In this document: positions 23,618-45,935 of the stretch, in pieces
How the letters are laid out: each line of letters starts with the position of its first letter
Numbering within the stretch: position 1 is the first letter of the stretch
Assembly: GCA_001938485.1 (NCBI GenBank)
Contig: MQRK01241907.1
Location: 1-51,597, forward strand
Direction of reading: 5' to 3'
DNA from: Girardia tigrina
Lineage: Eukaryota
Length of the DNA stretch: 51,597 bases
Notes under the pieces: generated by a model
What the model was told of the DNA's origin: nothing
The model's input: only the letters and a program-made list of their open reading frames with translations
The model's database searches: none
Position numbers and translations under genes: made by a program

Positions 23618-23874
23618 CTTATTGGATAATAATTAAAAATGATAATTAATTATTTAAAAAATNNNNNNNNNNNNNNNNNNNNNNNNNNNNNNNNNNNNNN
23701 NNNNNNNNNNNNNNNNNNNNNNNNNNNNNNNNNNNNNNNNNNNNNNNNNNNNNNNNNTATTTTTAGATAATAAGAATTAAAACATTAATCATCCATCTGG
23801 GTAGGAGAGACACATTTCCAAATCAACATACACATTCAAACACAAAACATCAAACATTCAAAATATTCCTCACA
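23618..23874 (-). repeat. Third copy of the ~260-bp TGTGAGG repeat (spans a gap)
   Basis: CCATCTGGGTAGGAGA at 23793, ATTCCTCACA ending at 23874, TTATTGGATAA near 23619. Confidence 0.5.
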
Positions 23875-25097: not shown

Positions 25098-25454
25098 TAT
25101 GGAAGGGAGTATTGTACGGTTACCTCAGATCATAGAATTAAAAAAGAAGTACAAGTTTTTTATCTACCTTGACGAAGCTCATAGTATCGGTGCTCTGGGT
25201 TCAAGAGGCAAAGGCGTATTAGATTATTTTAACATTAATTCGGAAGAAATTGATGTAGCCATGGGAACATTTACAAAAAGTTTTGGTTCTGCCGGTGGAT
25301 ATATTGCTGGCAGTAAAAGGTTAATTGATTATATTCGTGAAAAGTCTCACAGTACAATCTACGGAGCGACCATGTCTGCACCAATTTGCCAACAAATCAT
25401 TACCTCCATGAGAATTGTTGAAGGTTTGGAAGCTGGAAATCAGGGAATAAACAA
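25098..25454 (+). CDS. SPTLC2: Serine palmitoyltransferase 2 coding exon 4 (PLP-binding lysine)
   Basis: Acceptor TTTCTTCAG|T; MEGSIVRLP...[11 protein letters not shown]...[17 protein letters not shown]...GNQGIN(K); donor AA|GTATTC, phase 2. Confidence 0.95.
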
Positions 25455-25748
25455 GTATTCATTGTTTATTTATACTATTTCATTGACTTAGTAGCAAACA
25501 TAATCTATTTTAATGAAGATATCGTTCTTATCAAAATTATTTCATTCAAATCTGTTGGAAAATAATTTGGTTTACTTATATTAAAATTTGAATGCTTTAA
25601 ACTCGTGAAATATTGTAAAATAACAAAAATTAATTACAAATTAATTTAATTAAGAATTGATTAAATCAAAGTTTCACAAACAAAAAAAAATTGTATTTTT
25701 CCAAAATTGTTTGATGTACTAATTAAGATTTTTATTTGTGTATGATTA

Positions 25749-26954
25749 CGTCGTTCGATCAATAACCTTTAAGACTTGGTATGAAATAAATAATTCACAC
25801 TGTTCTAACAACTTTTATTTTGAAAAACATTTATTACTAGTATGAAAAATATTTTCTACATCATTTCTCAATGCAGCCTCCTTGGTTATCAACAAGTTTC
25901 ATCTGTGCAACAGATCATCAAAGGCAACAGTAAACAACTTTTGATTCTGTGGTAATAAGAAATTTGATACAAATTCCTTGAGATCATATCTACATGAAAA
26001 GTGACGCCATCTAGGATGTTTTTTAGACGTTTGAATAAATATAAGTCATTTGGAGCGATGTCAAGAATGCACTGCGGGTGTTCCAGGTTCCAAAAACCAC
26101 ATTTCAGGATTGTTTCTTGTTGTGTGGAGTGAATAGGCGTCTTGTAAGTCAAAAATCAAAGTCTAGTATTTTGTGCCCTACGTTTCTTTCTTATTCACTC
26201 AGTAAAAAGAACACTGAAGTATTCTGCATTGATGGTACTATATTTTTGGCAGAAATTCAAATTGGTAACACCCTTTCGTGACCAGAAGTTTTTACTTCCA
26301 ATCTTGAGTGTAGGATTCTCATCTTTGCAATGCCACTCAACAAACTTTTTCTGGTCTCAGGAAGATACATTCAAAATGAAGTCCTGAGTAATAATATTGT
26401 CAAGGAAAGTTGAATTCCATTACTCAGAAATTACCAGGTTGGCGTGCATCTTTCATCACTTCAGGGAAAAACTTCGGCACAAATCTACTGCAAAAAATTT
26501 TGTATCCAAGTTCTGTTACCATAGTATGCAAAGAACCGTAACTAATCTTCAGTTGAACTGCTAGTTCGCGTACTAGTATTTTACGATCACAGTTGAAGAT
26601 TGTTTCACATTGAAATTTTTCTCATCTTAGATTTTTTTTGGTCTACCTACTCTACCGGTATCGTTATCCCTTGCCTTGGTTGAACTCCTTCAGTCAATAA
26701 TAAAACCACCATAACTTTTTCCCATGTCTCTAATAGTTTCGTTTGCACTTTTTCCAAGTTTATAGTAAAATTTAATGATGCTGCAGTACTTCATATTGTT
26801 CAAAATACCGCCAACCAAAATGAACAAAAGTGATCAATTAAAATGAATGTTTTGATTTACTATGAATAAATGTTGTTCAAAATAACAGTTGTTAGAAAAT
26901 TGTTAATCTTTTTATATCATACCGAGTCTTAGAGGTTATTGATCAAACTAGGCA
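25749..26954 (-). mobile_element. Decayed full-length mariner
   Basis: ~40-bp TIRs (GATCAATAACCTYTAAGACTYGGTATGAWATAAA at both ends). Minus-strand MKYCSIIKFYYKLGKSANETI... and EHPQCILDIAPNDLYLF. Confidence 0.85.
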
Positions 26955-27129
26955 TAAAATTACATTTCACCATTCCAAAAGCCTATGATTTCGCTATATA
27001 TTTGTCGGTATTTAAGACTATTAAGATTTATTAATTAATATTTTTACTAATATTATATAATTAATACTTTATATAGTATCCTCTATTCAGTACATGTTAT
27101 ATCTACTTTCAGTCTGTTTAGTGCCTCGG

Positions 27130-27620
27130 TTTTAACAAGTGAGTGGGGAAAAAAGAAGTCATTCTTCATCAAAATAAAAGCTAAAATTCGACTTAACTGG
27201 TTCTAGTTAAACAAACTATTGACCTTTGCTGATTGGGCTAACATATTATGTGATAAGTGGCGCTTTACTTTGTTTAAATCCAATGGATGTGTTTGGATGT
27301 GATGGCAAACGCAAAAGGGACACAATCAGGATTATCTAGTGCTTAGAGTAAAATTTGATGTGGATTTTCAAAGTATGGATCTGTTTTATCACTTATTCAA
27401 TTAAGCCTATTGCAAGTTGCCAAATTTGTAGGTCAACCAAAGATTACCTTCAGATACTACAGAAAGGTTAACTTCAGTTGTACCCAACTGTTCCAGTCAT
27501 TGATTTTCAAGACAATCACAGGTGTTGCTAAATTACCACAGTAGTGAAGTTCTGGTTCCTCACTCAAGATATTTCTTTCATAGACTGGGTTGCAGAAAGA
27601 GAAACCGTTGAACTTGCTGA
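27130..27620 (+). mobile_element. Tc1-like transposase relic
   Basis: DWANILCDKWRFTLFKSNGCVW...DYLVLRVKF..KVWICF...FQDN resembles the Tc1 WxxVLFSDESRF...VWGC...FQQDN pattern; heavily mutated. Confidence 0.5.
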
Positions 27621-28111
27621 AGAAATAAATCAGTCAATGACTCCTTTTACCTTCTTCTTTTACTACTATTTCAACATATCTATTAAAAAAAGTGATTGAA
27701 TATCTTTTTGGATTTCTTAGTCAGTATCGCCAACTGTATTCCAGACAGTGAAAGATATGACAAAGTTCAAGGACACTGTAAAAGTAATAAACGTATAATA
27801 TTGATAAATATATCAATCAAATAATCTTGATTATCTTACATAGAATACATAAGTGAATATATAAGTTGTCATGGACGTTTGATAGAGCGGTATACCCTCT
27901 ATGAAACTAAATATATATACCTGAATTTATAGTGTTCTTCTCTTGAATACCTTCTGTCTTGACTGTTTATTTATTTAGTAATTCAAAGATAATTGATATT
28001 TGTTGTCAAACTTCGAATTTATTGCAATAAAGTTGCCCAAAATTTTATAGTGCTAAATGATGGAGGAAAGTCCCAGTAAAAAGTGCCCTTTTTTGTTATA
28101 ACAAATAAATA

Positions 28112-29339
28112 TTAGGTTGGGGAAAAAGTAATCTATTATTTTAATCCATTATTTTAATTCATTGTTTATCGATCAAACAATTTCCAATTTATGCTCTTTT
28201 TTAAGGTAACATTTCACAGTAATTTCACAAAAATTTTTTGCTTTTTTTTATTCATTTCTGAGTCACAGGATTTTAAAAATGGAAGTCAACAAAGAAAATA
28301 TTCGGTGCATTTTACAGTTTTTATTCAATAAAGGCGAAAATGCAAGCCAGGCGACTGTTATTGTGAATGGTGTTTATGGTGCCAATACTGTAACAGCTAA
28401 TTACACGCTATTTTGGTTTCGTCGATTCCGTGGAGGCATTTTTGATGTTAAAGATGCACCTCGCACAGGCAGGCCTATCGTTGAAATTATCGATAAAATC
28501 TCGGCAATGATCGAAGTTGACCGGTATGTTAGTAGTTGTAGCATCGCACATGAGCTGAAGATCAACCACAAAAACGGTTTTAAACCATTTGGGAAAAGCA
28601 GGATTGAAAAAGAAACTTGATGTTTGGGTTCCACACCAATTAACACCAAAATACATGATGGATCGAATTTCCATCTGCGAAGCCTTGGCCAAACGAAATG
28701 AAATCGACCCATTTCTTAAACGGATGGTTACTGGGATGAGAAATGGGTCGAGCACCTCCAACGGTCGCGAAACCAGGACTAACGGCCAGGAAGGTTCTAC
28801 TGTGTATTTGGTGGGACTGGAAAGGAATCATTTATTATGAGTTGCTTCCGTATGGCTAAACACTAAATTCAGATCTGTAATGTCAACAACTGGACCGTTT
28901 GAAGATAGCAATTGATGAGAAACGATCAGAATTGGCCAACAGAAGAGGTATTGTGTTCCATCACGACAACGCCAGACCACATACGTCTGTAGGGATCACA
29001 TTCGCCAGGAACTCAGGGAGCTTGGTTGGGAAGTTTTAATGCATCCACCATATAGTTCGGACCTGGCACCAAGCGATTACCACCTTTTTCTCGCATTGCA
29101 AAATTTCCTGAGTGATAAGAAATTTGGATCAATAGAAGATGTGAAAATCGATTACTACAGTTATTCGCCAATAAGGACTAAGACTTCTACGAGAGAGGCA
29201 TTATGAAGCTACCTTCAAAATGGCAACTAATTATACAACAAAACGGTGCATATTTGACTCCAAGAGAACAATCAGAAGCATGTTAAATAAAGTTTTGAAT
29301 TTCACGCCAAAATAATGGATTTCCTTTTCCTCAACCTAA
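28112..29339 (+). mobile_element. Full-length mellifera-type mariner, inactivated
   Basis: TA-flanked TIRs TTAGGTTGGGGAAAAAGTAATCTATTATTTT / AAAATAATGGATTTCCTTTTCCTCAACCTAA. MEVNKENIRCILQF...DAPRTGRP, WVPHQLT, HDNARPH, YSSDLAPSDYHLF; several frameshifts. Confidence 0.95.
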
Positions 29340-30184
29340 TATTATCATTTATTTGTATAGACGTGTTACCTTTCAAAAATAAATATTTAATAGCATCACA
29401 GTACTCGATTTTTCTACTTTTTATATTACCGCTTAAAATAACTCACTCAAATGTCTGTCAAACAATAAATATACATCTAAAATGGCCGAAATTTTTGTGA
29501 GTATGAGTTTTCAACTCATACTTCATGACATGCTCAATGTTGACATGGGGTGTCATATTCACGCTGCTTTTGGAAACCTCTCAGACAACCTCGAATATAT
29601 TGGCGGCCTAATCTAATTTATGATTACAAATAAAAATTCTCATTATTATTTGAAGTATTAATGGTCGAGCAACGACATAGGATTAGATTAGTAGATAAGT
29701 GAATTAATTCTAAATTAGTATTTACATGATGAGATTTATTTCTACTAAGATTGTGACAATTTCATTCTAGAATATAATAATAAAATATATTTTATTTCTA
29801 AAATAATAATAGATTTAAATTAATACTAACTCAAATTTTTAAAATATATTTAATACATTTTTCAATGAATAAATTTGATTTCTTTTTGTTCGAGTATTTG
29901 ATGTTTTGAGTATTTTTCAGCGGCTAATTTGATGTCAAAGTCTCAGTTCAATTTATTATTTTTAGTGAAAATAGTAATGTTTGCTTATCTATTGATTATA
30001 TATGAGAATGATTTGCATGAGCACAGTGCAAGACAAGTATCTGCACTTATTGTACACCCTTTGCGGTTAATTATAATCAAGGTTAAAGGTCCGATGATTT
30101 TTAGATTTCATTTTGTTATTGTAATGTTAACACGACGACAAGGAGAAGAATGAGTTAGAATGTATAATAATGATAAGTCTCAGT

Positions 30185-30186
<2 letters not shown>

Positions 30187-30222
<36 letters not shown>
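30187..30222. repeat. (TA)n microsatellite
   Basis: Pure TA run; others near 3941, 36949, 43997, 50664 and 51563. Confidence 0.9.
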
Positions 30223-30225
<3 letters not shown>

Positions 30226-31345
30226 TGCTCTTAATATTAGTCTTATATTTAATCTTCATTAAATTAAAGAATTTTTCACTTCACCTTTTAAATAATTTCA
30301 TAATTATTCTAATTATCCTATAACAAAATGACATTAATTTCCTTTAATCAAAAATATGCGGGATGCAGGATATATTTTATTTATAATAATGATTAAAATG
30401 TGAGGATTAATAACTAAAGTAAAAAAAGTAAAGTTTGACAATTTGTAAAAAGACATTTCCACAAGAAAGAACAATACAATTGGAGTGAAGAGATAATCAC
30501 TGAACGTTGTGATTCTGAATTCGTTAGTTTTACATTTTTCAGTTTGTGCGCCTAATTTAAATAAATGAAAATTTTATTTAAATTTAAATAATAATTACAT
30601 ATATTTTGTGAAGATATATTTGTTGAAATCTAATTCACGTAGTTTTATCAATATGTAAATCATTAGCACAAATGAACTTGTATCACAAAAGATTTGTTTG
30701 ATTAGTTGATAATTAAAGATAATTATGGCATTTGATCGTATCTTTTGCATCTTAAACTTCTTGAAAAGAGTAAATATGGCATCTTTTATATTATAAAGGT
30801 TTATAAAAAGCATGGTATAAAAGCGGTTTTTTATATAAATGTGTCGTGTAATATTTGTGTTGTATTCAATAGAGCATTTAACTTTTTAACTTTTAGAAAT
30901 TGAATAATTTTTGTACTTAGCGTCATCATAAAACTAATTTTCAAAATTGAAAGTCAGAAACGAATTCGTGACATGTATTGTAAATTGGAATAATTATATA
31001 ATAATTATTGTGTATATGTTAAGAAATCTGATTGTATGATATCAACAGTGTGATGAGGGTATGGGTGTGATTATGTGTGTATCAAATGACAAGGCTTTAG
31101 AAATGAGAGTCATTACAACAACACTTTCCCCAACATATTGTATATATAATGACGATTGATTGAATAATAATTATTTATTGAATAATAATAATAAATAAAA
31201 TTTTAAACGTCCAACTTGTGGTGTATTGATTCGATAACTAAAATGTATATTTGTTCATATGCAAAAAATCTAAAAGTACTGAAAATATTAATAGAAAGGT
31301 CAATAAACATGAAGAAGGCACTCCTTTGTCAACTAAATCCTATAA

Positions 31346-32415
31346 CACTGGTTAACATGAAAAAAACTGCAAATATTTCATTATAATTATTTCATAGCAC
31401 ATGCAAAATGAAAAGGTTTTACATGCTTAGTTTGTCTCTATCGCGACAGGTTTTGTGTAACATTAAATAATGGCATTGAGCAATTATTATAATACCATTG
31501 AATAATATTAAAAGTAATGTTTTTTTTGCTTAAACGCTGAAGTCTGTTTATTATTTCAGAGAATTTACTTAATTTAATACGCCAAAGCATTGTATTTATC
31601 GGAAAGTTTTTCTATGTGTGCGAACGCTTTTCCATTGCAGACGAGAAAAAGAAAATATCAGTTCTGACCAAGAAATATTATTTTGCTTATTTGGATGTTA
31701 ACTGAGAGATCAAGACACGCCATTGGCGCCACATAAGGTGTGTAAGTTGTGTGAAGTAACGCTTAGTAAGGGGTTTTAAGGCAAGATTAAATACATGCAA
31801 TTTGGTTTGCCATTGATTATTCAGATTGTGTATCCCAACGTGCCATCAGCTATAAGACCTGTGCAATAATGTGAAGACATTCCTATGTCAAACCCTTCTG
31901 CTGAGCTGGAAAGTATCGATAGTGATGAAAGTACGAGTTCAGAAGCAACTCATGCTGATTACATCTCTGGTCTAGATACTACACCAAAGCTATTTAATCA
32001 AAAGAATCTTGATGATCCAGTTCGCAACCTTAATCATCCAAAGGCATCGACTGAACTACTTGCATCACATCTGCAAGAAAGATATCTCTTGAGTCCTGAA
32101 ACTTCTGTGACTGTGTATAGACGTCGTGCATGAGATTTGATTCCGATCTTTTCCAGCAATCTTAACTTATTTCAACGGAAATGCAATAGCATTATTTCAA
32201 ATGGCACATTCAGTAACCTTGCAAGAAACATATGATAATGTTAATTTGTTGCTCCCCTCATTGAATTACAACAAGCACTAATGCTTGATTCACGGCGATT
32301 TGAAGATCATTGCTATGGTATTAGGTCTGCTGGGTGGATATTTAAAATTCTCATGCTTTCTGTGCCTATGGGACAGCCGTGCGGATTCCGAGCATTACAC
32401 TAAAAAAGCTTAAAG
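31346..32415 (+). mobile_element. DNA-transposon relic of the widespread invertebrate GDQDK-WAPH / LWDSRA family (probably TcMar-m44-like)
   Basis: DQDTPLAPHKVCKLC, IVYPNVPSAIRPV, PKLFNQKNLDDPVRNL..ELLASHLQE, AHSVTLQETYDNV, GDLKIIAMVLG..GGY.KFSCFLCLWDSRA..HY; left end CACTGGTTAACA. The superfamily label is from memory and tentative. Confidence 0.65.
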
Positions 32416-32529
32416 TAAAACCATTTTAATCAGAGATACTTGATCTTAGGACCCAATATTTTATAAATCGTTTAATTCATAAAATTTACATTATTAAAAT
32501 TTTGTTTCTGAGCCAATTATTTGTTTTAA

Positions 32530-33430
32530 TGATACCTTGTCGCTCGAAAGCAACTCGTATACTTCACGAAGGGTCATATTACGATTCACCTTCAAATTTA
32601 TCTGTAACAAACATTTGATAGTTTTCTCAATAAAGCGGTTTCTCTTCTGTGTATACTGCATGAAAGAAAGTGAAAATAAAACTTACACATGTATGCTGCT
32701 GACTGGATTGGTAAAGATGATGCTGATTAGTTTGTAAAAAAGAGGTAAAGTGTCATTTACAGTAAAGATCCATTTGATGTCAGGATCGTCATTGAAAAAG
32801 ACGTGGTTCGGACATTTATCCGACAGATCATTGACATACAATATATCATCGAAAATATTATCCTTATTTGCCGTTTTCCTATCAACATGCTTCAATAGTT
32901 CTTTCATTTCTTTTTACCTAATGCTCCGTTCTCACTGATGTTTACATAATGTTTGTATAATGTTTCTACAAAAAACAATAATGATAGATAATTCTTAAAA
33001 GCTTGACACCAGGAGGCCTATTTTCTCTATTTCCATCTCTCTCAGAAGTTCGGTTGTGTTTCCTAAAAATTTTAGCTTTAGAACTTAAAATTTATGTATC
33101 CATCACGTATCAGTAAGGCTAAAAGTTTTGATGATTTCCGCTAATTCCGAAAGCAAGAGTTTCTTAAAGAGGGAGAAAACTGTGGAGAAAGAATAAAATT
33201 TTTCTAACTAGAAGAAGACCCTCAGCGAGCGATAGTGTTCAATGCTTTTCCCATTGACGACTTGTGTGTAATCAGTGTTAAATAACTGACATCAAGCTTT
33301 TGAAAAATTGCTTGATGCTTTCTGCTCTTCCGGTTTAGCTATTGAAGTGACTACCTGTCTTCATCAAAATGATCTCTATGAGAATCATGAAGTATTTCGC
33401 ATCCTTATCCTTACCAAATTTGCTGTAGGC
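32530..33430 (-). mobile_element. hAT transposase C-terminal (dimerisation domain) relic
   Basis: LPLFYKLISIIFTNPVSSIHV*VLFSLSFMQYTQKRNRFIEKTIKCLLQI matches the hAT pattern P.S.A..ER.FS.....T..RNRL; upstream frames are broken. Confidence 0.55.
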
Positions 33431-33807
33431 AGCCGATGATGATAGAAAATTAATAATACTACAAATATAATTTACTTATTTTAAAAATCTTTTTTAATAA
33501 AAATATCTGAATGTATTTATGGGGGGTTAGTTTAAATTTAAGTTTCGCCAAAATATTTTATTATTTTTTTGATTTGAAAATTTAAAAGAAATAAATGAAA
33601 AAATTAAAATGTAGGGTAAAAATATGACAAATAAATACTTATTTAAAATATGTTTACAGTAATAACAATTGATATATTTTGATAAAAGTTATGGAATAAG
33701 TTTAAATAATTTTAAATAAATAATTAACGGATTAATATTTAAGAAATATTTTTTTTTAACAAAAGGGTCTATTGTAAATTTAAATTAAATAATTTTTTAT
33801 GATAAAG

Positions 33808-33985
33808 TTTCGTAGAAAAATGTAAAATAATTTAAGGTTTAGATTTTGTAAAATTTTCGTAAAAAATATAAATATAATCTGAAGTTTAATTTGAAAAATG
33901 TAAAATAATTTCAAATTTGAATTTTTTAAAATTTTCGTAAAAAAATGTAAATATAATTTGAAGTTTAAATTTCGTAAATTTTCAA
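33808..33985. repeat. AT-rich minisatellite (~40-bp units, TTTTCGTAAAAAATGTAAA...)
   Basis: Four to five degenerate units sharing TTCGTA-AAAAATGTAAAATAATTT. Confidence 0.6.
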
Positions 33986-34654
33986 AATTTAATCGAAAAA
34001 ATTTATGAATTAATTTTGGGTGAAATAATTAAGTTATTGATAATAAAGATTATATGAAAATAAAAAACAAAATCAAAAACCTTGCAATGGTCAAATATCA
34101 AATATCTTCAAAATACAAAAAATGGCTCATTTTAGTTGAGAATATTCTGAATCTGTTGGACGATGAAGGAATAAAGAGTTTGAATAAATTAGCAATTGAA
34201 ACACGTAACAAATTGAATTAATAAGAAATTTGTTTAAGTATGTGAATTGTTGATATTAATAAATTTTGTGGTGTTAAATTATGACTTCAGAATGTGATAA
34301 TAATGAAAGTGGCATAAACGCTACTTACAGTATTGATTCGTGTAGAAATCCAGGGATAAATATCTGAATAAAATGCACGCATGTTTGGGATTATTACAGA
34401 AATCGTTTCTTTATAATCCAATAAAAATTAAAAAAATATGTAAAAGTTATAAAGCATTAACATGTGTTATTTTAATAAACACGGATATAATATAAATGTA
34501 CTTATTTTTCTTAATTTTTAGGCTACTGCAGTAATAAAACTAGTAAATCACAAAAATTCTTTTTTTTAAGACAATACTCTAAGAAAAATAAAAGTCACTC
34601 AAAAATCGATAAATAAAAAAATCAAATCTTCTTAGAACAATTAAATATTCTTAA

Positions 34655-35010
34655 TGGAACCAGTAACCAATCAGAAGCGTTTCTTATTAGGCTTGGGTGA
34701 TCGCGACCGTTGCTGCCTAGGCTAAGGACATGGGAACCGTTTTATTTTTGCACATTTTGCCCTATTGATTTGCACATTTGAAACTTGATTTTGATTGGCT
34801 TAGCACATTTGCATTGCTCGAGAACCGTGAACCAATCAGAAGCATTGTTAGGGTGATCGGAACCAACCAGAAGCGTTGCTAAGGTGATCGGAACTGTTGT
34901 TAGGGTGATCGGAGCCGTTGCTATAGTAACCGGAACAGTTGCCATGGTAACATCGATCGTTGTCATGGCAACGGGTGACCCACCGGGGTGGAGAATACCC
35001 ATTTTCTTAT
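34655..35010. repeat. X-box/CCAAT array element, copy A
   Basis: GTTG units at 34875, 34896, 34917, 34938 and 34959 (exact 21-bp period); the last three are GTTGCTATAGTAAC, GTTGCCATGGTAAC, GTTGTCATGGCAAC. CCAATCAGAAGC at 34667 and 34832; CCACCGGGGTGG; GGAGAATACCCATTTTC. Confidence 0.85.
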
Positions 35011-35649
35011 AGTGAGTTGAAATTTTACCAAAATTGTAAAATAACATCACCTATATATTTCTATACATACATATAAGAAGTAAATTAATATAAGAATTGT
35101 ATTAACTTAAAGGAAAGTAGTCACGACACATTTGAAAGTTCAAGCAGATAAGCAGTAATGTGTTAAAACCAGAATAAATATCTTGAATGGTGAAAAGTTT
35201 TGGTATGTGACAGACAATTTAGGTGAATGCATTTAGTAGAATTAGCTTTATTTAAACTGGAATGAAAACAAATTTGTTTTGCTTCTTCAATTATCATTTT
35301 CTAATTCACAAATGAATTAAAATAATTCTAATTTTATAGTTAGGTTTTTGTTACCTGATTCGCTTAAAAATTAAAGATTTATGTATTTTTATTTTTTGTG
35401 TTGATTGTTTTATTATTCTTTTATATTAAATTTTATTTACTAATGAATGATTCCATTTTATAATGAGTTTTATAATTTTGTTATTTTAAAAATATTCCTT
35501 ATACATAAAAAGAATAGAACAGGGAAGAAGCGAAAATAGTTTAAATTAATTTTAATCTTACTATTGGAATCACAAATAAGTGATTGTGGATATTAAATAA
35601 GAAGGAAGATTCAAATATTTTTCTGACAAATATAATATATCAATTATAT

Positions 35650-36190
35650 TTTGTCCATTTCGGTCATCCTTCATCCATCATTCTACATTTGAACAAATTC
35701 TGATTTTGTAAGCATAAAACTGAATGAAATGAGATTTTACATCATCAGTGTTATTAAAATCTTACATTTAGTGAGTTCTGCATGGAACTAATAATTGGTG
35801 ATTTGATGACACAAGTTCAACGCTATATGGACTGGATGGGACCCCTATCTTAACATCGTTTCTTTATTTTTTTTGCAAATGACGAAAGCTGTGTTGGGCT
35901 TTGCTTTATCATGTATTAAAATAGCATCGTGATGACTTGCCAATTCAAGCCGTTTTTCTTGAAATACATTGCTCATTTGGCGATTTACTGAACGTAAACG
36001 CCTAAATTAATATAATTTTCTTTTCTTGAATTGTAGATTTAAATGTCGTCTGTGCTGGTTCATCTGGTATCAGCCACGGTCTTTTGAAATTAATTGTATT
36101 AAAAACTATCACCTTTGACGTTGGTAAAGGGTGAGGAATGTTTTGAAAAACGGGGTCACCCAGGAATGCAGTTAGACAATGATGCACTGA
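35650..36190 (-). mobile_element. mariner transposase relic
   Basis: KRPWLIPDEPAQTTFKSTIQEKKI and ILIHDKAKPNTA (HDNARPH-like) on the minus strand. Confidence 0.55.
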
Positions 36191-36850
36191 AGGTAACCGT
36201 TGATTCGTATCTATAAAAAAGTTCTCATGACTTCTTGCTAACGTTTATTGTTGCAAAGCAAACAATATTGAATTACTTGACTGAAATCGGTAAAGTGCCA
36301 AAATTGGAAAAGTGGATTCACACGAGTTTAATGAAAAGCAGAAAAAAGCGTTTAGATGCTTTATCGTTATAAATGTGATCACTTTTTGAATCAAACTGTC
36401 ACTTGTGATGAAAGGTGAATCCAATATGATAATCGAAAACATTCAGCAAGCTAGATTGACACGAATGAAGCACAAAAACATAGTCAAAAGTACAACATTC
36501 ATTAAAAGAAGATTATCGTGAGTGTTTTGTAATCTGTCGCAGGTTTAATCCATTATGAATTAATGAAACTTGGTTATTAAATCACAATAGATGTCTACTG
36601 CAACCATTTGGAATATATATGATGTGAAAACTCTAAGAAAAACAGTCGTGTTTGGTAGAAAGGTCGGCTCCCAACTTTCTCCACGACAATGCCAAACCTT
36701 ACTTAAGACCTTGACAAAATTACATGAACTTGAGTTGGGATTTCTCCATCATTCTCCATACTCACCAGACCTAACCTCTACTTACTTCCATTTCTTCCTC
36801 AATTTTAACAATTTTTAGTTATGAAAAAAATTCAGTTTGCAAAGTTTTAT
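36186..36850 (+). mobile_element. cecropia-type mariner relic
   Basis: FLNQTVTCDER*IQYDNRKHSA, AGLIHYE, LHDNA, HSPYSPDLTSTYFHFF. Confidence 0.7.
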
Positions 36851-37097
36851 TCAAAGTCTCAACAAGCTGCCACACAAATAATAAATTGTGTCTGTTCCGG
36901 ATTTACAATAATAAAGAGAAATATTATTTAAAATTTAACTTTTTTCCATATATATATATATATAAACTACATTTAAATTCGAATTCTAAAATCCAAATTT
37001 CAATTTCAATTTTTATTTATTTTTGTTAATTTAATTTTTTATCACTTTATTGCGTGTGGTTATTATCTGCTTAATTCCCAAAACATCATCATCAACA

Positions 37098-37330
37098 ATG
37101 GTCAATTTTACAATTGAACAAATCAATTCATTGATGGACAAAAAGTCATTCAATGTCCACGTCGATCACGGCAATTCCTCCGGTTCTTTGATCAGTAAAG
37201 CTGGAATTATTGCCGGTGCTCGATTCATAGACATCCAAAAAGGCGAAAAAGAACGTTGTATCATCATCATGTCGACTTCAATATCGATGCACAACGAAAT
37301 GACCAAAGACAATTTTAAACAGAGAGACGG
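37098..37330 (+). pseudogene. EEF2: Elongation factor 2 (eEF2) 5' pseudogene fragment, probably a retrocopy
   Basis: MVNFTIEQINSLMDKKS..HVDHGNS..SLISKAGIIAG.ARFID..K.EKERCIII.STSISM aligns to eEF2 MVNFTVDQIR..MDKK...HVDHGKSTLTDSL..KAGIIA...RFTDTRKDEQERCITIKST. The P-loop Lys is lost, three deletions are present, and the copy is 3'-truncated. Confidence 0.88.
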
Positions 37331-37708
37331 TCTGAGAAGAATCAATTTTAAGAGAACGTAAAACGGTCCTCTTTAGGGTCATAAATTTTGATTGGCCATG
37401 GGCAATAACAGTGTCTATAATATTGGCGCATACTTTGATGAATGACAAAAATATTTGTATTGACAAATTATCAATAAATTTTAACTTGAGTTCTTCAAAT
37501 TTCATACTTGACGACTTAACAATAATGACATGTTTTATTGAAATGATAATTATTTAATGATTGGATAATCATGACATCATTCATATTTCAATCATAATTA
37601 ATTTATTTTCATAAATACCTTCTACTGATCAATATAACTCCGATCAATAAAAGAAAAAAATGCATAATTTGGGTAAATTTATACGCAAGTATACCTAAAG
37701 ATCATTAA

Positions 37709-37943
37709 CCTTTAACCGGATAGAATGTTTTTGTAACATAAACGGATAGAAGATTCCGAAGGACTCTTAAGCTGATAATTGAATGTATACATAAGAAATC
37801 CTTGAAAATTCGAACATTCTTTTAATAAAATTCATGATTAGTTAAAAAAAAGTGCTAAAAATTGAATTTGAATTAGTATTTTTATTTTGATTTACGTACG
37901 GTTAATAAAAAGAGTCCAAAAAACTCTTCTATCCGGTTAAATG
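37709..37943. mobile_element. piggyBac-type MITE
   Basis: TTAA|CCTTTAACCGGATAGAA ... TTCTATCCGGTTAAATG|TTAA, with an internal repeat of ACGGATAGAA. Confidence 0.8.
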
Positions 37944-38589
37944 TTAATGAAAGGTTATAAATCAGAAGTGATTACTACTTTATTAACACACGGCAATTAG
38001 CCGTATTTGTGTGGAACCATTGTATTCTTTTGACGCCCTGTCTGACTCCAGGACAAACAAACTTATTATTTATATTCACTAATTTATAATAATTTCAGTA
38101 AATTTGCAACAGACTATTTAATGAGTGGATTAACCAATTCGAAATTAGATTTCAAAATAGCAAAGCACCTTTCTATTAAGACTTATAGAATGAAAGAATA
38201 AATATTCTTTTAGATTTGCTGATGTTCTAGTTTAGTTTTGTTTATTTTTGAAATTCTAAACTTTGACCATTTTAGAATTACTGCAATAATAAATTAAAGA
38301 TTTACAGTCTATGTACTGAATAATGTTTATTTCAGTGTTCAATCAACATAAGACTCAGAATTCTGTTTATCATTTTGAGTGTTTCTTGGTCAACATTGAA
38401 ATAATCGGACTGATATGGTTCTTGTCTAACCCAGTGTATCATAGTAAAATAGGCGATTAGCAGTATAACCTACTAGCTTTCAATCACAGGCAACCTGAAA
38501 ATCAAGGTTTTCTAATTACTTTTGACTCAGAATATGTTCCGATATATTTTGAAATTTTTATGAATTACATTTAATTGAAGTCGCATTCA

Positions 38590-39030
38590 GGTTGACCAAC
38601 GATAATGAATTCTAAAACAATCCGTGGAGCGATAAAAAACTTCCTCAATGAGTACTCGTAGATCTTCTGCAATAAGGCAACATAAAATCCCTTGGCACCA
38701 TACAAACTCAATAAAAGATTTTAAATCTTAACAGAATTGAACTTCTTCTTTACCAAGCTTATCATCCTGACCTTCCGCCATCCTATTATTACTTTTTGGT
38801 TCCGTGGCGCACTTTCTTCCTAGCCTCAACTTCAAAAATCTTCGAAACGGTCACTGGGTTTTTGTATTCTAGAACCTAAGAATGGTACCCCCTCGGAATT
38901 GACCAACCTGCTGATAGAGGGATTCAAGCCATTGATTCAAATGATCTTTACTTTTAGTCTTGATTGATTTTAATTTGTTGAAAAAATTATCTTTGATCTT
39001 TTTTTGAAAAAAATTGAAATAACTTTTAGT
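38590..39030 (+). mobile_element. Old 3' fragment of the same mariner family as 21424-22663
   Basis: Colinear with 22170-22640 (TTGAACTTCTT, CCGCCATCC, GGCRCACTTTCTTC, TTCAAGCYATWGATTCAAATG, CTTTACTTT). Confidence 0.7.
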
Positions 39031-39279
39031 TCAGCATAATAACTAATTTTTGCATTTGCATTATTTCGATTTGAGTGAAGAAAACATTTATCAATTCGAA
39101 TTGAATATAAAATGTTTTGGGTTTTCTAAATCTCACTTTAAAATAAAAAAACGAAGTGCACCCAATAATTAGTGAGTCTATCATTGAGAACATAATCCGA
39201 TTATTCAAATCAAATGTATTTTCCATTACAAACAAAATGTTATCAATGCATCATTTCTCAAAACAAGTTTTATCTACAT

Positions 39280-40320
39280 AGACACAACCAGGCCCTGAAG
39301 TCTTTTTAAAGACAAAATTTCTGCGTCTGTTTCGCAAACCAATTTGAAAACGTATCTTTCAAATCTTGTTTTGTATGAAATTTAGACTTATGAGAATTTG
39401 CTTAATCATTGTGGACACAAACGCTTGTTTCAGTAACATAGGCAAGAATCCAACCTTTTAAATCCAAAAGGTGTTAACAATCTTACCTTCCTTGTCAGGG
39501 ATCAACTGTGCGGCCAGGTAGACATACTTCTACGTAGTGTTCCGCAGAAACTAGATTGGGTTCGACTTCGTCTCTAGGCTAAAGTGTCTGATAAGCTAGC
39601 AGATTTATTGCGGAACAGCCGGCAATATATTGTATTTCAGTGTTGGGTCAGCAATCCATCAACTAGGCTACGCTTTACAATCTGGATGTGAAGGCTGTGG
39701 GGAGTAGTGACCCCGCGGTCGATGGTTGGATTGCAGCGTCATGATTCAGGATGAATCAATCCTTATATACGCATTGAAAAACCGGCTGAGCTAAAGCATG
39801 GATTCCTACACAGGGGGAGTGCTCGTTGAGAATTATCAGCGTCCCAGGTCTCATAGAAAGCCTCAGGCTTAATACCGTAAAGGAGTAGAGGTGCACCTTC
39901 CTTGTAGAATCTTCTTCGGATAGCTTCAACTTTTGAGATTCAAGTCTCAATTCGGGTACATGATGGACAAGAGATACTTCTTTCATGGTTTTAATATTCT
40001 GATAGAAGTGATATTAACACGTTAAAAATTTCAGGTTCTCCTGACAACAAATCAACCTTTGCCTGCACTGAAGCTCATTGTTCGTTCTCTGGTAGTTATT
40101 CATCGTTCATTCTGCATGATTTGTTTATTTTACTAAGTTTTTATAAACTTCACTTGTTGTCGATCTGTCCGGGAAAAATCTTTCAACTCAAATTTGACCG
40201 ACTAGCTATCGGGCTGAAATTTTCAGAGTAAATCAAAACCCGAAGACAATGCGTGAAAAAAATATTTCAAGTTGATCGGACATGTCTAAGTTGTCATTTT
40301 GGCAAAAAAAACAGTTTGCA
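39280..40320 (-). mobile_element. Unclassified decayed DNA-transposon-like segment
   Basis: GC-richer block with broken minus-strand frames and a terminal region (GGGCTGAAATTTTCAG...AAAATATTTCAAGTTGATCGGAC) resembling DNA-transposon subtermini; family not recognised. Confidence 0.3.
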
Positions 40321-40516
40321 TGTAGACAATTTATATGGGTAAATTTTGTATAATAAAATGATTTGAATCTTTGTTTTGATCAAATTTGAATCTCAGTTTT
40401 TGTTAATTAATAATTATTAATAGCTAAAATTAATTTATATCTTACGATATAAATTAATTTTAATTCATCATTTTATTTTATCTATTCTAGTTAACGCTAA
40501 TACCGGTCAATTTAAA

Positions 40517-40770
40517 TATGTAGGAATTGAAGAAGAACATCGATAAATGGCGTTGTTGAAAGTATAGGTATTTTAATAGTTTATGTAAACAGTTGATATC
40601 TAAATTATTTAAATATTTTGTTAAAATTTGCGTATGTTGTGTTTGTTTAGTGAGAATAGAGTGATTAAATATTTTAAAATAGAAAACTGAAATTTTAAGG
40701 ACAATATAGTGGAAAAAATTGATTTTTAAAAACGTGGTAATATAAAAAGCTCTTTTTATACATGTAATTA
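40517..40770 (+). repeat. Dispersed repeat; a deleted copy lies at 574-663
   Basis: ATGTAGGAATTGAA..AACATCGATAAATGGCGTTGTTGAAAGT and TTAAAAACGTGGTAATATAAAAAGCTCTTTTTATACATGTAATTATT are near-identical in both; about 160 bp is missing from the upstream copy. Confidence 0.8.
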
Positions 40771-41558
40771 TTATCCCATATTTCTCAGTCAATTTTACTT
40801 GGTTCATCTGATTTTCTTCGCCAGAAAAAAGTTCGACATTCTCGAAACTGGTTGACTCGTTACTTACCAGCAATCATGGATGACATTTCTTTATCTTAAA
40901 TAGTACTTAGCTTGGACAATGTCTCTTACCTCCTTTTTCCTTTCATAAACAAAAAGAGAAAGGTGCTTCCACATTAAACACTTTGCAAAGATATTTTTGT
41001 AATTTTGTGCTTTGTAACATAATAAAAAATAATGTATTATTATTTATACAATGAATGATGTATTTATAAATTGTTTGTTATGAGAATAGTTGAATAGTTG
41101 AATAGTTGGATTATGTTTTCAATTGAGGGCTCAGTGAAATGTTTTATAATTGAAATAGACCCCACCCTTTGGGAGTTCAGATCCTATTGCATAATTACAT
41201 TATTTTTATTGATTAATCATTGATTAATTAAAACAGGAACAGACAAATTTATGCTAATCAATTCAAAACTCTGAAAAGTAATTTTAGGGTAAAGCAATAT
41301 GTAGGGAATTTTGTTTTTGTAGTGTCTATTTGGTTTTATTCTGGATTTGGTTAAACCAGAGTCCTGTCTCGCTGCATAAGTAACAGTCGCTTCCGATTAA
41401 CCGATATTCAATATTATTTGAAATTTAATGTTATACAAGATGAAAGTGTCGGTTACAAAATACTCTTTATTTAAACAATTCAAAATTCTTTGACTTTTAA
41501 ATCATCGGATTTTCTAATTTTTTGAAAATCTTTTCTATTAAATATTTCATATATTTAA

Positions 41559-41841
41559 CCCGTAACTACTACAATCCTGTTTTCGGTACATGGACACTAC
41601 AATCAGGTCAAATTGACCGGCAACATAATTCATTCAGTTTTCATTGTTTTAACAAGTAATTATCAATAATTATAAGCAAAACAAGTCAAATTAGACCTTT
41701 GCTAAGATGGAGGATGGTATAACACACAAAAATATACCCTTCAAATAATTAAAAAAACATCAAACCTTCAAACATATATCATTTATTATTCACTTATCTA
41801 GAGTTAAAAGGTCAAATTGACCGGCTAATAGTAGTTACGGG
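41559..41841. mobile_element. piggyBac-type MITE
   Basis: TTAA|CCCGTAACTACTA ... TAGTAGTTACGGG|TTAA; the subterminal near-palindrome GGTCAAATTGACC occurs near both ends. Confidence 0.85.
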
Positions 41842-42499
41842 TTAATAATAATCAAACTTATAATTTTAATTATTTAACCTTCTTTTTCAATGACTCGGCA
41901 GCTTATCCTTAACCATAAAAATATTGTGTTTGTTAATTCTGATGATTAAAGTAAACCTTTGAAAAAGAAGATTAACAATTCGAAGAAAGGAAATGTATAT
42001 TTACACATTTCACGTTATACATCAAACTTTGATCATTATAAAAGTTAATGTACTTTTAAATTTCCAGAAATTCAATTTAAAATATATTTTCATGCATAAG
42101 TATATAATAAATATTATGACAATATTTACCGTACCTAAAAAGAGTTTTGTTTTGTCTTGAGTCTACGCAGCTGTTGTAAAAGTAATAGGAGGTATATAAT
42201 TCCAACATTGATTCCTGTCTGTTGAATATTTTATTTCAATCTAAAATTTATGTGGTTAGAACTTTCTTTTTATTAGAATTATTACTTATTTTTATTATTA
42301 CGAATTATATCTTTCTGAAAAACAATAAAAAACGTTTCAGATATTATTAAATTTTAAGAAATTAAAAAAATATTTTATAAATAATCATGTTAAATGTATA
42401 TTTAATAAAAATAATATTATTTTTAGCAATAATTATATTGATAATAATATTCGAAATAATAATAATTTATTTTATAATAAAAAAGGTTTATTTTTTAAG

Positions 42500-42755
42500 A
42501 ATCAGACAACTAGCTTGGAACACTCAGTATTTTCGTGCAAACCTTCACAAAAAGGGTTATGTGGTATTTGGAAACAAAGATAGTCCAGTAGTGCCCATTA
42601 TTATTTATACTCCCACAAAACTAGCAGCCTTCTCACGCGAATGCCTTAACAGAGATGTTGGAACAGTTGTTGTCGGTTTTCCGGCCACCAGCATTATCCT
42701 AGCTCGGGCTAGGTTTTGCATAAGTGCTTCTCACACCAAGGAAATGATTGATTAT
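42500..42755 (+). CDS. SPTLC2: Serine palmitoyltransferase 2 coding exon 5
   Basis: Acceptor TTTTTTAAG|A; (K)IRQLAWNTQYFR...GNKDSPVVP...VVVGFPATSIILARARFCISASHTKEMIDY; donor TAT|GTAACA, phase 0. Confidence 0.95.
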
Positions 42756-43689
42756 GTAACAATTATTTATTTTTTTAAATATTAAATTAATTCTTGCTTT
42801 ATCTATAATCTTGCTTTATATATAATACAAATAATTTTAATTATTTCTTAATTTATTTTTCGGATTTATACTAGATATTTTCAAATTAACAAAAATAAAA
42901 TTAAAAAATTAATTATTCTTAAAAATAATTTGATACATATGAAAATTTGATTAAATTTCATAAATCACCATGTCACTCTCATCCAAGAACCAATAGCGAT
43001 TTTATTAAACTCAATTTTCACTCTCACTCGTCACAGTAAATTATTCAGTCATTGGAATTACAGAGAAATTCATTTTCGTTAAAGCATTTGATTTTTTGGC
43101 AATATTTACCAGCCAAAATGGCTTTTATCGATCATTTCCATCAAAGTTTTCAAATTCAGTTTGATTATATCTGTGACTATACATTTAAGTTTGAAAATAT
43201 TATCTTTGAAATTGACCAAATATCGTGCTACACTTATTGCTCAAATGAGAGTATTTCTAACAATAGCCAAAATATTTATTACAAATTTTTTATTTAAAAA
43301 ACAATCCATTATAACACTTTTTTTAAAGTTTAAAAAACATTTTTAAAACCACTAATTTTTCGTACATTACAAATTCACCATTTTTCAACATTTAATTTAA
43401 AACTTTTTACACCTCATTTTAAAAATTCATTACGCATAATTTTACATAAATTTGAATAAAATTTTAAATATTTCCACATGTAATAATTTTTACTTAATTT
43501 ATTTTCCTTTAAAATAATGTTATTCATTTTACTGCACCAGAATAATAATTCATAAATGTTTCAAAATATTGGTATTTTTTGCCCCAGTGCGTAGTTGAAA
43601 CGGAAACCTAGTCCACGTTCTCCAGAAATGAAATCAGACAGAACCAGTAAATCAAAAAAATTTATGTCCATTCTTTATGCTGGCAGAAT

Positions 43690-43996
43690 TCTATTTTACC
43701 AAGAGAATTTTTTTGTTATTTTTTGTAAAAGCGAAAATTACTATTACATTTATTAATACGTTTTCATCTTTACTTTTTTACATAATATAAACTACTTATA
43801 TTTTATAAGTAGATCATTTTCAGTTAATATTAGTCAGAAACTCCGATGGAACCGTTTTTCCACAATTCTGAGACCTTAACAACTTTTTTGATCAAATTTT
43901 TACATAATCATTTATTGTCATCGAAAATGAGTAAGTGTGCAAAGTTGGAAAAAAATGATTGAAGCCTTCAAAATAGGTTTCTAAATTCCATGGATC
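43690..43996 (-). repeat. ~300-bp microsatellite-associated repeat; inverted copy at 47040-47340
   Basis: Reverse complement of ATCCATGGAATTTCGAAACCTATTTTTGAAGGCTT...GATGACAATAAATGATTATGTAAAAATTTGATCAA...; both copies abut (TA)n/(TG)n, as in Helitron/Helentron-derived repeats. Confidence 0.8.
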
Positions 43997-44178
43997 ATAT
44001 ATATATATATATATATACCTAGAAATAAAAAGAATGGAAAAAAAGAAATAAGCAAATTCAAATCGCAAAATTATTCCTATTCTCGAATATATCTACAAAA
44101 GTAGTTATTATATAATCGATGATCTCATAAAATTCTTTTTGAACATCTGTTGTAGAAAATTTGAGTATGAGGCTTGTA

Positions 44179-45350
44179 CAGTAGGGGACACATTATTATA
44201 AACACCTGATATTTTCATGTTATTTTAGGTTTTCTCATTATTTATAATGTAATTAGCAAATACAGTCATAGTTTTGATACTTTCTGTGTTTGTTTTATCA
44301 CCCCATCAGAAATGTGACAACTTTTAAACCTTATACTGAAAAATTACCACAATTCCATTAGAAAATGATCAAAATAAAAGAAAATCAAAAAGGTAAGAAA
44401 TACATGTTTTATTCCAGAATGCAAAATTTAAATATGTAAATACCTGATTACAAATGTTTTATTGTTCATAGAATAAGTAAAGGGAGTTCAATAAATGATC
44501 AATTAAACAATTTAATATTTTGTTTGTCCTCCTTTAGCGTTTACTACTGCCTGGAGACGTATATGCATGCTATCAATAGAGTTTTGAAGCTTCTGCTGAA
44601 ATTCATCATAACGAAACCAATTGCGGAGGACGCTCGAAATAAGCTGATCCTTTGTTGTATGAGTAATTTGGCTGAGTTTCTATTTCATAATACCCCAAAT
44701 GTTTCTATGGGGTTTAAGTCAGGAGAATTCCCAGGCCAAGGAAGGACATTGATATGGTTGGTCTCCAAAAATTAAGTCACCACCATAGCCTTGTTTCATG
44801 GAGCTGAATCATGCATGAAAGCACAGTTTTCAACTTGGCTTCATATATTTTTTTTCATATTTTTTTTATTTTTTATTTTTCATATTGGCTTCACCGATTT
44901 GCAGCCGGCATCATTCAGTCGTCTGCGAACTGTACGTACTGAAACATTGATACCAAGTTCAACGAGCTGACCCTGTAATTATTTTGCTGACAGAAGGTTA
45001 TCTTTTCTAATCATTCTCACCATTATCCGGTCGTCCTGTTCAGTTGTTTTTCACTGGATGCCAACTCTGGATGTTGAAGGGACACCTGCTGTTATTCGTT
45101 TTTTTGATGTTAATGACACTTACATGATGAATGTTGCACAAAGTGACAATCTGTCTAATTGAAAACTTTCCACTTGATAACAAAGTGTCAACTTTTGTCA
45201 CAACAGTAGAGGACAGATCACAGCATTTACCCATAACTACGAAAGATGTCTTTGTATTCAACAGGATACTGTTGAAATCATCTGTAAGAAGAAATTTAAT
45301 AATCTAGTACTGTCAGATAATTAATTTATTTACCTGTCTGACAGCAACAG
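44179..45350 (-). mobile_element. Tc1 (DD34E) element, internally deleted, 5' end lost
   Basis: TA|CAGTAGGGGACAC terminus; minus-strand MGKCCDLSSTVVTKVDTLLSSGKFSIRQI and WPGNSPDLNPIE. Confidence 0.8.
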
Positions 45351-45353
45351 ATC

Positions 45354-45790: not shown

Positions 45791-45935
45791 TGGTATTATT
45801 TTAGTAAAATTGCAAACTTACCATTTGATTCAATTATTAATATAGTGTCTTATTAATATAAATTCACAAATCTGCCTTTGGTAATGTGAATCAAAAATTT
45901 AAATATTCAAATATACAAATATTCAAATTTTCAAA

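What the first reader, a model, noticed from the sequence alone, without database searches (positions are those of the whole stretch)
34655..35010. Mobile cassette of helically phased RFX X-boxes plus CCAAT boxes (copy A)
Seen: five units at an exact 21-bp period (two helical turns), grading from half-sites (GTTGCTAAGG) into full 14-bp palindromes GTTGCTATAGTAAC, GTTGCCATGGTAAC and GTTGTCATGGCAAC. They are preceded by CCAATCAGAAGC repeats, an ATTGG and TGCACATTT repeats, and followed by CCACCGGGGTGG and a conserved GGAGAATRCCCATTTTC. Known: GTTGCCATGGCAAC is the RFX X-box consensus (ciliary genes, some viral enhancers), CCAATCA is the NF-Y site, and RFX and NF-Y cooperate at MHC-II promoters. 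Inference: a dispersed element carrying a ready-made RFX/NF-Y platform that could wire host genes to RFX or recruit host factors to the element's own end.
Basis: partly seen in the sequence, partly recalled or inferred. Interest (0 to 1): 0.75.

Follow-up and report, generated by a model that had tools for sequence, protein, structure and literature searches.

The report
Transposon-end relics carrying phased RFX sites
This is the leftover end of a mobile DNA element, most likely a virus-like Maverick/Polinton, lodged in an intron of a probable flatworm; it carries three evenly spaced look-alikes of the binding site for RFX, the cilia-gene regulator, which probably served the element itself rather than the host gene.

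Summary
The array is real: five units at a 21-bp period, the last three X-box-like; one equals a validated C. elegans X-box. It lies in intron 4 of a serine palmitoyltransferase 2 gene, 33.8 kb from the start codon; a second copy (B, 79% identical) lies just past the stop codon. The host is probably a free-living flatworm (weak). The CCAAT boxes occur in 1 of 4 copies, so the RFX/NF-Y platform is not supported. A scan of prokaryotic genomes returned 4 loci; 2 are eukaryote-like contigs holding a related element with three boxes at 21 bp. All four copies stop at one shared end; L004 ends ACTACT and B ends TCTACT, both documented Maverick end motifs; A and L003 match only partly. Best reading (0.5): orphan terminal inverted repeats of a Maverick/Polinton, whose boxes recruit host RFX for the element, like host-factor sites in adenovirus ends. 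Rival: Helentron end (0.2). No partner end, target duplication or Maverick gene was found; binding is untested.

The parts
34657..35013 (+). Copy A: GC-rich (46%) non-coding relic of a mobile-element end; outer end faces right; lies in intron 4 of SPT2
34657..34741 (+). Inner duplicate block of A (CCAATCAGAAGC at 34667 plus 30-bp-type units; 34706-34741 matches B 48855-48890 at 86%)
34741..34811 (+). GCACATTT-unit block (spacings 22 and 31), with ATTGG at 34794; counterpart in B at 48595-48741
34829..34874 (+). 31-bp repeat carrying CCAATCAGAAGC (34832) and CCAACCAGAAGC (34863); absent from B
34875..34979 (+). Five 21-bp units; two inner half-site units, three outer X-box-like units
34917..34930 (.). 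X-box-like 14-mer GTTGCTATAGTAAC (1 mismatch to validated che-13 and bbs-7 boxes)
34938..34951 (.). X-box-like 14-mer GTTGCCATGGTAAC (1 mismatch to validated xbx-1 and bbs-7 boxes)
34959..34972 (.). X-box 14-mer GTTGTCATGGCAAC (reverse complement of the validated xbx-2/xbx-4 box)
34973..35013 (+). Terminal segment of A: GC palindrome 34980-34991, then GGAGAATACCCATTTTC, then a degraded end (TATAGT) where similarity to B stops
48595..49015 (+). Copy B: same orientation, 0.7-1.1 kb after the SPT2 stop codon; 21-bp units at 48748-48810 and 48888-48971; 8-bp-stem hairpin 48990-49009; ends TCTACT (49010-49015), a documented Maverick end variant
1095..47924 (+). Host gene: serine palmitoyltransferase 2, coding exons near 1095-1466, 10193-10458, 22880-23080, 25093-25455, 42498-42752, 47811-47924 (approximate bounds)

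Best explanation
Copies A and B are orphan ends (terminal inverted repeat remnants) of a Maverick/Polinton, a virus-like self-synthesizing DNA element, or of a non-autonomous derivative of one. SHOWN: two related GC-rich non-coding repeats that share one sharply defined end and differ inside; an array of X-box sequences 41-51 bp inside that end; a related element with the same triple 21-bp array in contigs of another eukaryote; two of four ends equal to published Maverick end motifs. INFERRED: the outer 6 bases are the origin for protein-primed replication; the three boxes on one helical face bind host RFX dimers and act as an auxiliary origin or inward-facing enhancer for the element's own genes, as host NF-I and NF-III sites do in adenovirus ends; the inner half-site units and CCAAT units arose later by local tandem slippage, differently in each copy; the copies now sit as passengers in and behind a housekeeping gene.
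For: Shared end with free interior. A vs B terminal segment: 0 of 1000 shuffles reach the score. Related element in L003/L004, two non-coding eukaryote-like contigs in a bacterial bin (L004 holds a prolyl endopeptidase exon): outside the searched boxes, B matches L004 at the terminus (2 of 1000 shuffles) and L003 and L004 just inside the array (0 of 1000 each), while the two bacterial loci give 337-964 of 1000. L004 ends ACTACT, the commonest Maverick 3' motif (PMC8097293 passages; 712 occurrences in its table); B ends TCTACT, and all 23 occurrences of that word in the table are 3' end motifs. Lengths of A (357 bp) and B (421 bp) fit vertebrate Maverick TIRs (46-1447 bp, mean 402). Orphan Polinton TIRs occur in C. 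elegans (PMC11414722 passages). Mavericks are expanded in Dugesia (10.64898/2025.12.11.693146 passages) and the host is probably a flatworm. Host-factor sites next to a protein-primed origin are established for adenovirus (PMC6410123 passages).
Against: A's end matches the published motif in only 3 of 6 bases and L003's in 4 of 6. 3 of 4 window-versus-contig terminal comparisons are not significant (A-L003 298, A-L004 207, B-L003 596 of 1000), nor is A's inner block against L003/L004 (259 and 118 of 1000); spacers of window units and contig units are unrelated (21% identity), so convergence on an RFX site is not excluded. No inverted partner end, no 6-bp target duplication (for B the 6-mer tested was one base off the end used here), no Maverick gene among 23 + 72 ORFs scanned. 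No Maverick TIR sequence could be compared: two supplements searched held none of the motifs and the table with the C. elegans TIR was not found in the stored, cut file. A 6-base end motif is weak evidence. The last box lies 41-51 bp from the end in A/B, which also fits Helentron geometry. RFX binding is untested.
Confidence: 0.5

Rival explanations
1. A and B are 3' ends of non-autonomous Helentrons (HINE/DINE-1-like rolling-circle elements): the last 14-bp palindrome is the palindromic subterminal repeat, the GC palindrome is the 3' stem-loop, and the X-box likeness is a by-product or a Helitron-borne site array as with heat-shock elements in C. elegans.
For: HINE subTIRs are 12-15-bp palindromes 38-60 bp from the 3' end with a palindrome 8-35 bp from the end, and the elements carry tandem repeats (PMC4067079 passages); in A and B the last box ends 41 and 51 bp from the end and palindromes follow. 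Strict A/B identity stops at CCCATTTTC, next to a T run. L003 has about 180-bp inner repeats, as Helitron2 elements do (PMC12001565 passages).
Against: None of the 4 ends is followed by TT and none shows CTRR|T. No matching subTIR at a 5' boundary. In L003/L004 the last box is 111-112 bp from the end and their similarity runs on past the T run to TACT. The terminal folds are no better than shuffles (z -1.23 to +0.95 for the six terminal folds). No Rep-helicase ORF.
Confidence: 0.2
2. A and B are end remnants of a cut-and-paste DNA transposon (for example hAT or CACTA type) or of an unclassified repeat; the 21-bp array is a subterminal site array for the transposase or a host factor, and the contig element is convergent.
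For: Read from outside, A begins CACTA and B and L004 begin CAGTAG, like termini of several superfamilies (recalled). An 11-bp inverted match to A's end lies at 34577. B has an 8-bp direct repeat TCTACTGT at 48742 and 49010.
Against: The 34577 match is AT-rich, one of many such chance-level hits, and has no counterpart at B; the 8-bp repeat overlaps the first box and homology to A continues 150 bp beyond it. No target duplication fits both copies.
Confidence: 0.15
3. Whatever their origin, the arrays have been kept by the host as RFX (with or without NF-Y) enhancers, here for SPT2, wiring sphingolipid synthesis to the ciliary programme.
For: The boxes equal or nearly equal validated X-boxes. 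Two copies flank the last exons of one gene. Among the three outer units of A boxes are 81% alike and spacers 19% (circular, since units were picked as box-like). Helitron-borne heat-shock elements are functional in C. elegans (PMC6927752 passages); planarian intronic enhancer-like regions and an rfx7 motif are reported (PMC9522251 passages). A role of ceramide in cilia is recalled, from no call.
Against: Position far from any start codon found; CCAAT in 1 of 4 copies; boxes not significantly more conserved than spacers between A and B (p=0.13) and no more than the non-box end (30 of 33); the same array in a foreign element shows the boxes pre-date insertion; the introns hold many other transposon relics, so two copies need no selection.
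Confidence: 0.1
4. A neutral minisatellite whose unit happens to resemble an X-box; 21 bp is simply the unit length and nothing binds.
For: Inner units share their spacers, showing tandem duplication. Two bacterial loci with no RFX also hold paired X-box-like 14-mers, at 22 and 20 bp.
Confidence: 0.05

Closest known systems
Maverick/Polinton terminal inverted repeats (PMC8097293, passages and supplementary table; PMC10748475, passages)
   Same: Non-coding end of about 400 bp; outer 6 bases ACTACT (L004) or TCTACT (B), both listed as 3' end motifs.
   Different: No inverted partner, target duplication or core gene found; A and L003 ends are partial matches; an RFX site array in such ends was not mentioned in the passages read.
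Orphan Polinton_CE_TIR repeats at C. elegans eri-6/7 (PMC11414722, passages)
   Same: TIR remnants left as same-orientation repeats within a host gene locus.
   Different: There the near-identical repeats drive trans-splicing of an inverted gene; here the copies are 79% alike, the gene is colinear, and no role is shown.
Adenovirus ITR with NF-I and NF-III sites (PMC6410123, passages)
   Same: Host transcription-factor sites placed just inside a putative protein-primed end (works-like analogy).
   Different: Different factor (RFX-type), three phased copies, 41-112 bp inside the end rather than nt 23-36; no sequence similarity was tested.
Helentron-associated HINE/DINE-1 elements (PMC4067079, passages)
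   Same: Palindrome 41-51 bp from one end, terminal palindromes, internal tandem units.
   Different: No TT flanks, no 5' subTIR, geometry not kept in L003/L004.
Helitron-borne heat-shock element arrays of Caenorhabditis (PMC6927752, passages)
   Same: A mobile element carrying a tandem array of a conserved host factor's site.
   Different: Different factor and probably different element class; binding and gene control are proven there, untested here.
Ciliary-gene X-box promoters (RFX/DAF-19; PMC3245922, section 7 and passages)
   Same: Box sequences identical or one base away from validated sites.
   Different: Validated sites lie 60-285 bp (one 767 bp) upstream of the ATG; these lie deep in an intron or past the stop codon, inside a repeat.

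Membership tests
Maverick/Polinton | 6-bp end motif (AGT)2//(ACT)2 or listed variant | tested here: inconclusive
   Exact in L004 (ACTACT) and B (TCTACT variant); 3 of 6 in A, 4 of 6 in L003
Maverick/Polinton | Paired terminal inverted repeats around the element | tested here: not met
   A and B are in the same orientation; no inverted copy in the window. Expected for orphan ends, but membership is then not shown
Maverick/Polinton | 6-bp target-site duplication | tested here: inconclusive
   None found within 20 kb inside the ends (B tested one base off); cannot be judged without the other end
Maverick/Polinton | pPolB, integrase, ATPase, protease, capsid genes | tested here: not met
   No such Pfam family in 23 long ORFs and 72 ORFs near A and B
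Maverick/Polinton | Sequence similarity to the TIR of a full-length element | not testable with these tools
Helentron/HINE | Palindromic 12-15-bp subTIR 38-60 bp from the 3' end | tested here: inconclusive
   Fits A (41) and B (51), not L003/L004 (111-112)
Helentron/HINE | Matching subTIR 2-4 nt from the 5' end | tested here: not met
   No inverted match of the end region at an inner boundary; A's inner boundary has no such palindrome
Helentron/HINE | Short palindrome 8-35 bp from the 3' end | tested here: met
   34980-34991 in A; 48970-48983 and 48990-49009 in B; folding not better than shuffles
Helentron/HINE | Flanked by TT / T-rich target | tested here: not met
   0 of 4 ends followed by TT at the shared end; met only if the end is moved in to the T run
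Canonical Helitron | 5' TC, 3' CTRR before T, hairpin near the end | tested here: not met
   0 of 4 ends show CTRR followed by T (CTAG end as in PMC12001565 passages)
Functional RFX X-box | 14-bp sequence matching validated sites | tested here: met
   A 34959 and B 48951 identical to validated boxes; A 34917, A 34938, B 48930, B 48790 one base away (by eye)
Functional RFX X-box | Promoter-proximal position | tested here: not met
   33.8 kb after the SPT2 ATG (A); past the stop codon (B); no Pfam-supported gene after B within the window
Functional RFX X-box | RFX binding and dependence in vivo | not testable with these tools
   Needs EMSA, ChIP/ATAC, knock-down
RFX/NF-Y (MHC-II-type) module | Conserved CCAAT box at fixed short distance from the X box | tested here: not met
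   CCAAT/ATTGG in 1 of 4 copies; 85 bp from the first full box; MHC-II spacing of about 20 bp is recalled

The most novel reading that the evidence does not exclude
Maverick/Polinton ends in distant animals share a conserved triple RFX site at two-helical-turn spacing just inside the protein-primed origin. RFX would then be the host factor that licenses replication or transcription of these endogenous viruses, the counterpart of NF-I/NF-III in adenovirus, and would tie their activity to RFX-rich ciliated and flagellated cells, including sperm precursors; orphan ends would scatter ready-made RFX arrays through host genomes.
Probability: 0.2. Interest if true: 0.75.

Novelty: new variant of a known kind. 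Interest (0 to 1): 0.42.

Why it matters
Mobile elements that carry arrays of host-factor sites are known (Helitron heat-shock elements, adenovirus ends). What would be new is the pairing of RFX with a Maverick/Polinton end and its recurrence, at the same 21-bp period, in an element from another eukaryote. How and in which cells Mavericks replicate is open; a conserved RFX array would name a host factor and a cell type to test. Three searches found no paper making this link (Helitron+RFX, 25 GTTGCCATGG+transpos, 69 X-box/RFX/transposon; listings seen, one paper read in passages); a search pairing Polinton with RFX was not run, and Repbase/Dfam could not be consulted, so the element itself may well be catalogued. 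Practically, such repeats are a source of false X-box calls in motif scans of flatworm genomes.

Tried and rejected
Structured RNA: no Rfam match in the window; none of 9 folds of the ends and inner boundaries was clearly better than shuffles (best 7 of 200). Coding role: no curated Pfam hit in ORFs overlapping A or B. Prokaryotic origin: no blastn match in phages or plasmids; 2 of the 4 loci from the genome scan are bacterial and unrelated outside the searched boxes. A and B as the two LTRs or two TIRs of one element: same orientation, different interiors, intact host exons between them. Inverted match of B's end at 45203: isolated 11-mer without a matching neighbourhood. Box-over-spacer conservation in L003 vs L004 (5 of 42 vs 8 of 21, p=0.02) set aside as circular, since both loci were found by the boxes. 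Host identity: best named hits are flatworms for exons 1, 3, 4 but not exon 5; three single-exon trees gave no starred placement (exon 5 sister to parasitic flatworms at 90/90), so 'planarian' is an inference from this, 28% GC and long transposon-filled introns. Supplements of PMC8502044, PMC10748475 and PMC11414722 gave no Polinton TIR DNA; PMC1450207 was not held. Spacings of 30-31 bp elsewhere in the element also fit whole helical turns, but one is 37 bp and this was not tested statistically.

Full report
Observation. The described sequence is present at the stated place. Unit starts at 34875, 34896, 34917, 34938 and 34959 are exactly 21 bp apart. The three outer units begin with X-box-like 14-mers, each with one mismatched pair. 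Five sites in the window lie within 2 mismatches of GTTGCCATGGCAAC against 0.01 expected, four of them in this element and its second copy. Copy B at 48595-49015 has the same orientation and aligns with A over 138 columns at 79%; no third copy was found. Compared by eye with the 31 validated C. elegans X-boxes (PMC3245922, section 7 read), A 34959 is the reverse complement of the xbx-2/xbx-4 box, B 48951 equals the xbx-1 box, and four more are one base from a validated box.

Setting. The window is 28% GC and is spanned by one serine palmitoyltransferase 2 gene with six coding exons. A lies in the 17-kb intron 4, 33.8 kb after the start codon; B lies 0.7-1.1 kb after the stop codon. The introns hold mariner, piggyBac-like and GIY-YIG fragments. 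Best named hits are flatworms for 3 of 4 exons tested; three single-exon trees give no firm placement, the best being exon 5 as sister to parasitic flatworms at 90/90. A free-living flatworm such as a planarian is likely but not shown.

Anatomy. Both copies run, from inside to outside: a block of GCACATTT-type units, a variable set of 21-, 30- and 31-bp units, three X-box units, a GC palindrome, GGAGAATRCCCATTTTC, and an end 41 (A) or 51 (B) bp after the last box. The interiors differ: CCAAT/ATTGG occurs three times in A and not at all in B. Between A and B, boxes differ at 7 of 56 and spacers at 8 of 28 positions (p=0.13), and the non-box terminal bases match at 30 of 33: conservation belongs to the whole end, not only to the boxes. 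Among the three outer units of A, boxes are 81% alike and spacers 19%; this is partly circular but shows that the outer array is old and that its boxes outlasted its spacers, whereas the inner units share spacers and look like later duplications. The ends do not fold better than shuffles, match no Rfam family and encode nothing recognisable.

Relatives. No eukaryotic genome collection was available. A scan of prokaryotic genomes for two boxes 5-9 bp apart returned 4 loci. L001 and L002 are bacterial, with 22- and 20-bp steps. L003 and L004 are short, largely non-coding contigs in one bacterial bin that look eukaryotic (L004 holds a prolyl endopeptidase exon with a GT donor). They share a 207-bp repeat end (81%) with three boxes at 21 bp, E-box words, in L004 CCGCCATCTTG repeats, no CCAAT, and a common end 111-112 bp after the last box. 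Outside the searched boxes, B matches L004 at the terminus (2 of 1000 shuffles) while the other three terminal comparisons fail (207-596 of 1000); B matches both contigs just inside the array (0 of 1000 each), A does not (259 and 118), and the bacterial controls do not (337-964). The inner match includes a box-like half-site, so it is not fully independent. Spacers are unrelated between window and contigs (21%). The data favour a distant common design or ancestry, without proving it.

What kind of element. L004 ends ACTACT, the commonest Maverick 3' motif (PMC8097293, passages; 712 occurrences in its table). B ends TCTACT; all 23 occurrences of that word in the table are 3' end motifs, mostly paired with AGTAGA. 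A (TATAGT) and L003 (ACTCAT) match 3 and 4 of 6. Vertebrate Maverick TIRs measure 46-1447 bp, mean 402, against 357 and 421 bp here. Orphan Polinton TIRs are known in C. elegans (PMC11414722, passages) and Mavericks are expanded in Dugesia (10.64898/2025.12.11.693146, passages; its supplements were not seen and may bear on copy number). Against: no inverted partner, no target duplication, no Maverick gene, and no TIR sequence to compare. The Helentron reading fits the 41-51-bp distance and the terminal palindromes (PMC4067079, passages) but fails on TT flanks, on a 5' subTIR and on the geometry of L003/L004. I therefore do not file the element as a Maverick; I rate that origin at 0.5, Helentron at 0.2, another DNA transposon at 0.15.

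Mechanism. The likeliest working is element-centred (inferred): a protein-primed origin at the outer bases and, just inside, three RFX sites on one face of the helix that recruit host RFX to open the end or to drive the element's genes, as NF-I and NF-III sites do in adenovirus ITRs (PMC6410123, passages). After insertion and loss of the body, the ends remain as passengers. Co-option for the host gene, as shown for Helitron heat-shock elements (PMC6927752, passages), is possible but has no support here: 30 of 31 validated X-boxes lie 60-285 bp upstream of the ATG, these do not. The RFX/NF-Y pairing is a property of copy A alone.

Novelty and verdict. Searches for Helitron+RFX, GTTGCCATGG+transpos, planarian+RFX+transposable element and X-box/RFX/transposon listed no paper describing X-box arrays in such ends (listings seen; PMC12001565, PMC9522251 and PMC11802806 read in passages only); Polinton+RFX was not searched and repeat databases could not be consulted. 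Transposon ends with host-factor arrays are a known kind; an RFX triple array kept at 21 bp in elements of two different eukaryotes would be a new variant. Interest 0.42; the bold reading (RFX as the host factor of Maverick ends) has probability 0.2 and would deserve 0.75.

Noticed in passing
window 37098-37358 +: Degraded N-terminal fragment of eukaryotic elongation factor 2 inside SPT2 intron 4 (E 1.7e-15 to eEF2); likely a pseudogene.
   Followed up: partly
window 16539-16794: Near-perfect fold-back (96-bp arms at 98%, extending to about 128 bp) whose outer ends resemble a Helitron 5' end (resemblance recalled, from no call).
   Followed up: no
window 16901-17371 +, 46448-46909 -, 48233-48365: Three related fragments; the first has a GIY-YIG domain (Pfam), Penelope-like by recall; the third abuts the region inside copy B.
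   Followed up: partly
window 1985-3060, 5061-5471, 10899-11680, 21587-22589, 28210-29206, 36591-36818: piggyBac-like (DDE_Tnp_1_7) and mariner transposase relics.
   Followed up: partly
window 14965-15743, 25753-26948, 45354-45723, 43690-47341, 50657-51594: Inverted-repeat pairs that look like MITEs or DNA transposon ends; the 43690/47341 pair encloses about 3 kb.
   Followed up: no
window 616-663 and 40725-40772: 48-bp exact repeat 40 kb apart, the first copy close to an assembly gap.
   Followed up: no
window 48609-48622, 48742-48749, 49010-49017: In copy B: a perfect 14-bp palindrome TTGCACATGTGCAA and an 8-bp direct repeat TCTACTGT at the start of the first box array and at the end; three ATCGAT words.
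   Followed up: partly
L004 1849-1962: 26-bp inverted repeat whose outer arm starts right after the 6-bp end motif; B's short hairpin also starts right after its last 6 bases. Meaning unexplained.
   Followed up: partly
L003 and L004 (WPAE01000077.1, WPAE01000165.1): Contigs filed in a bacterial genome bin look eukaryotic (repeats, an exon with a splice donor): probable bin contamination.
   Followed up: partly
L001 2980-3060; L002 3001-3034: Bacterial intergenic repeats made of X-box-like 14-mers (22-bp tandem in Limnothrix; paired palindromes in Methylobacterium), showing that the word arises without RFX.
   Followed up: no
window 25255-25268: An X-box-like 14-mer (2 mismatches) inside SPT2 exon 4; probably chance.
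   Followed up: no
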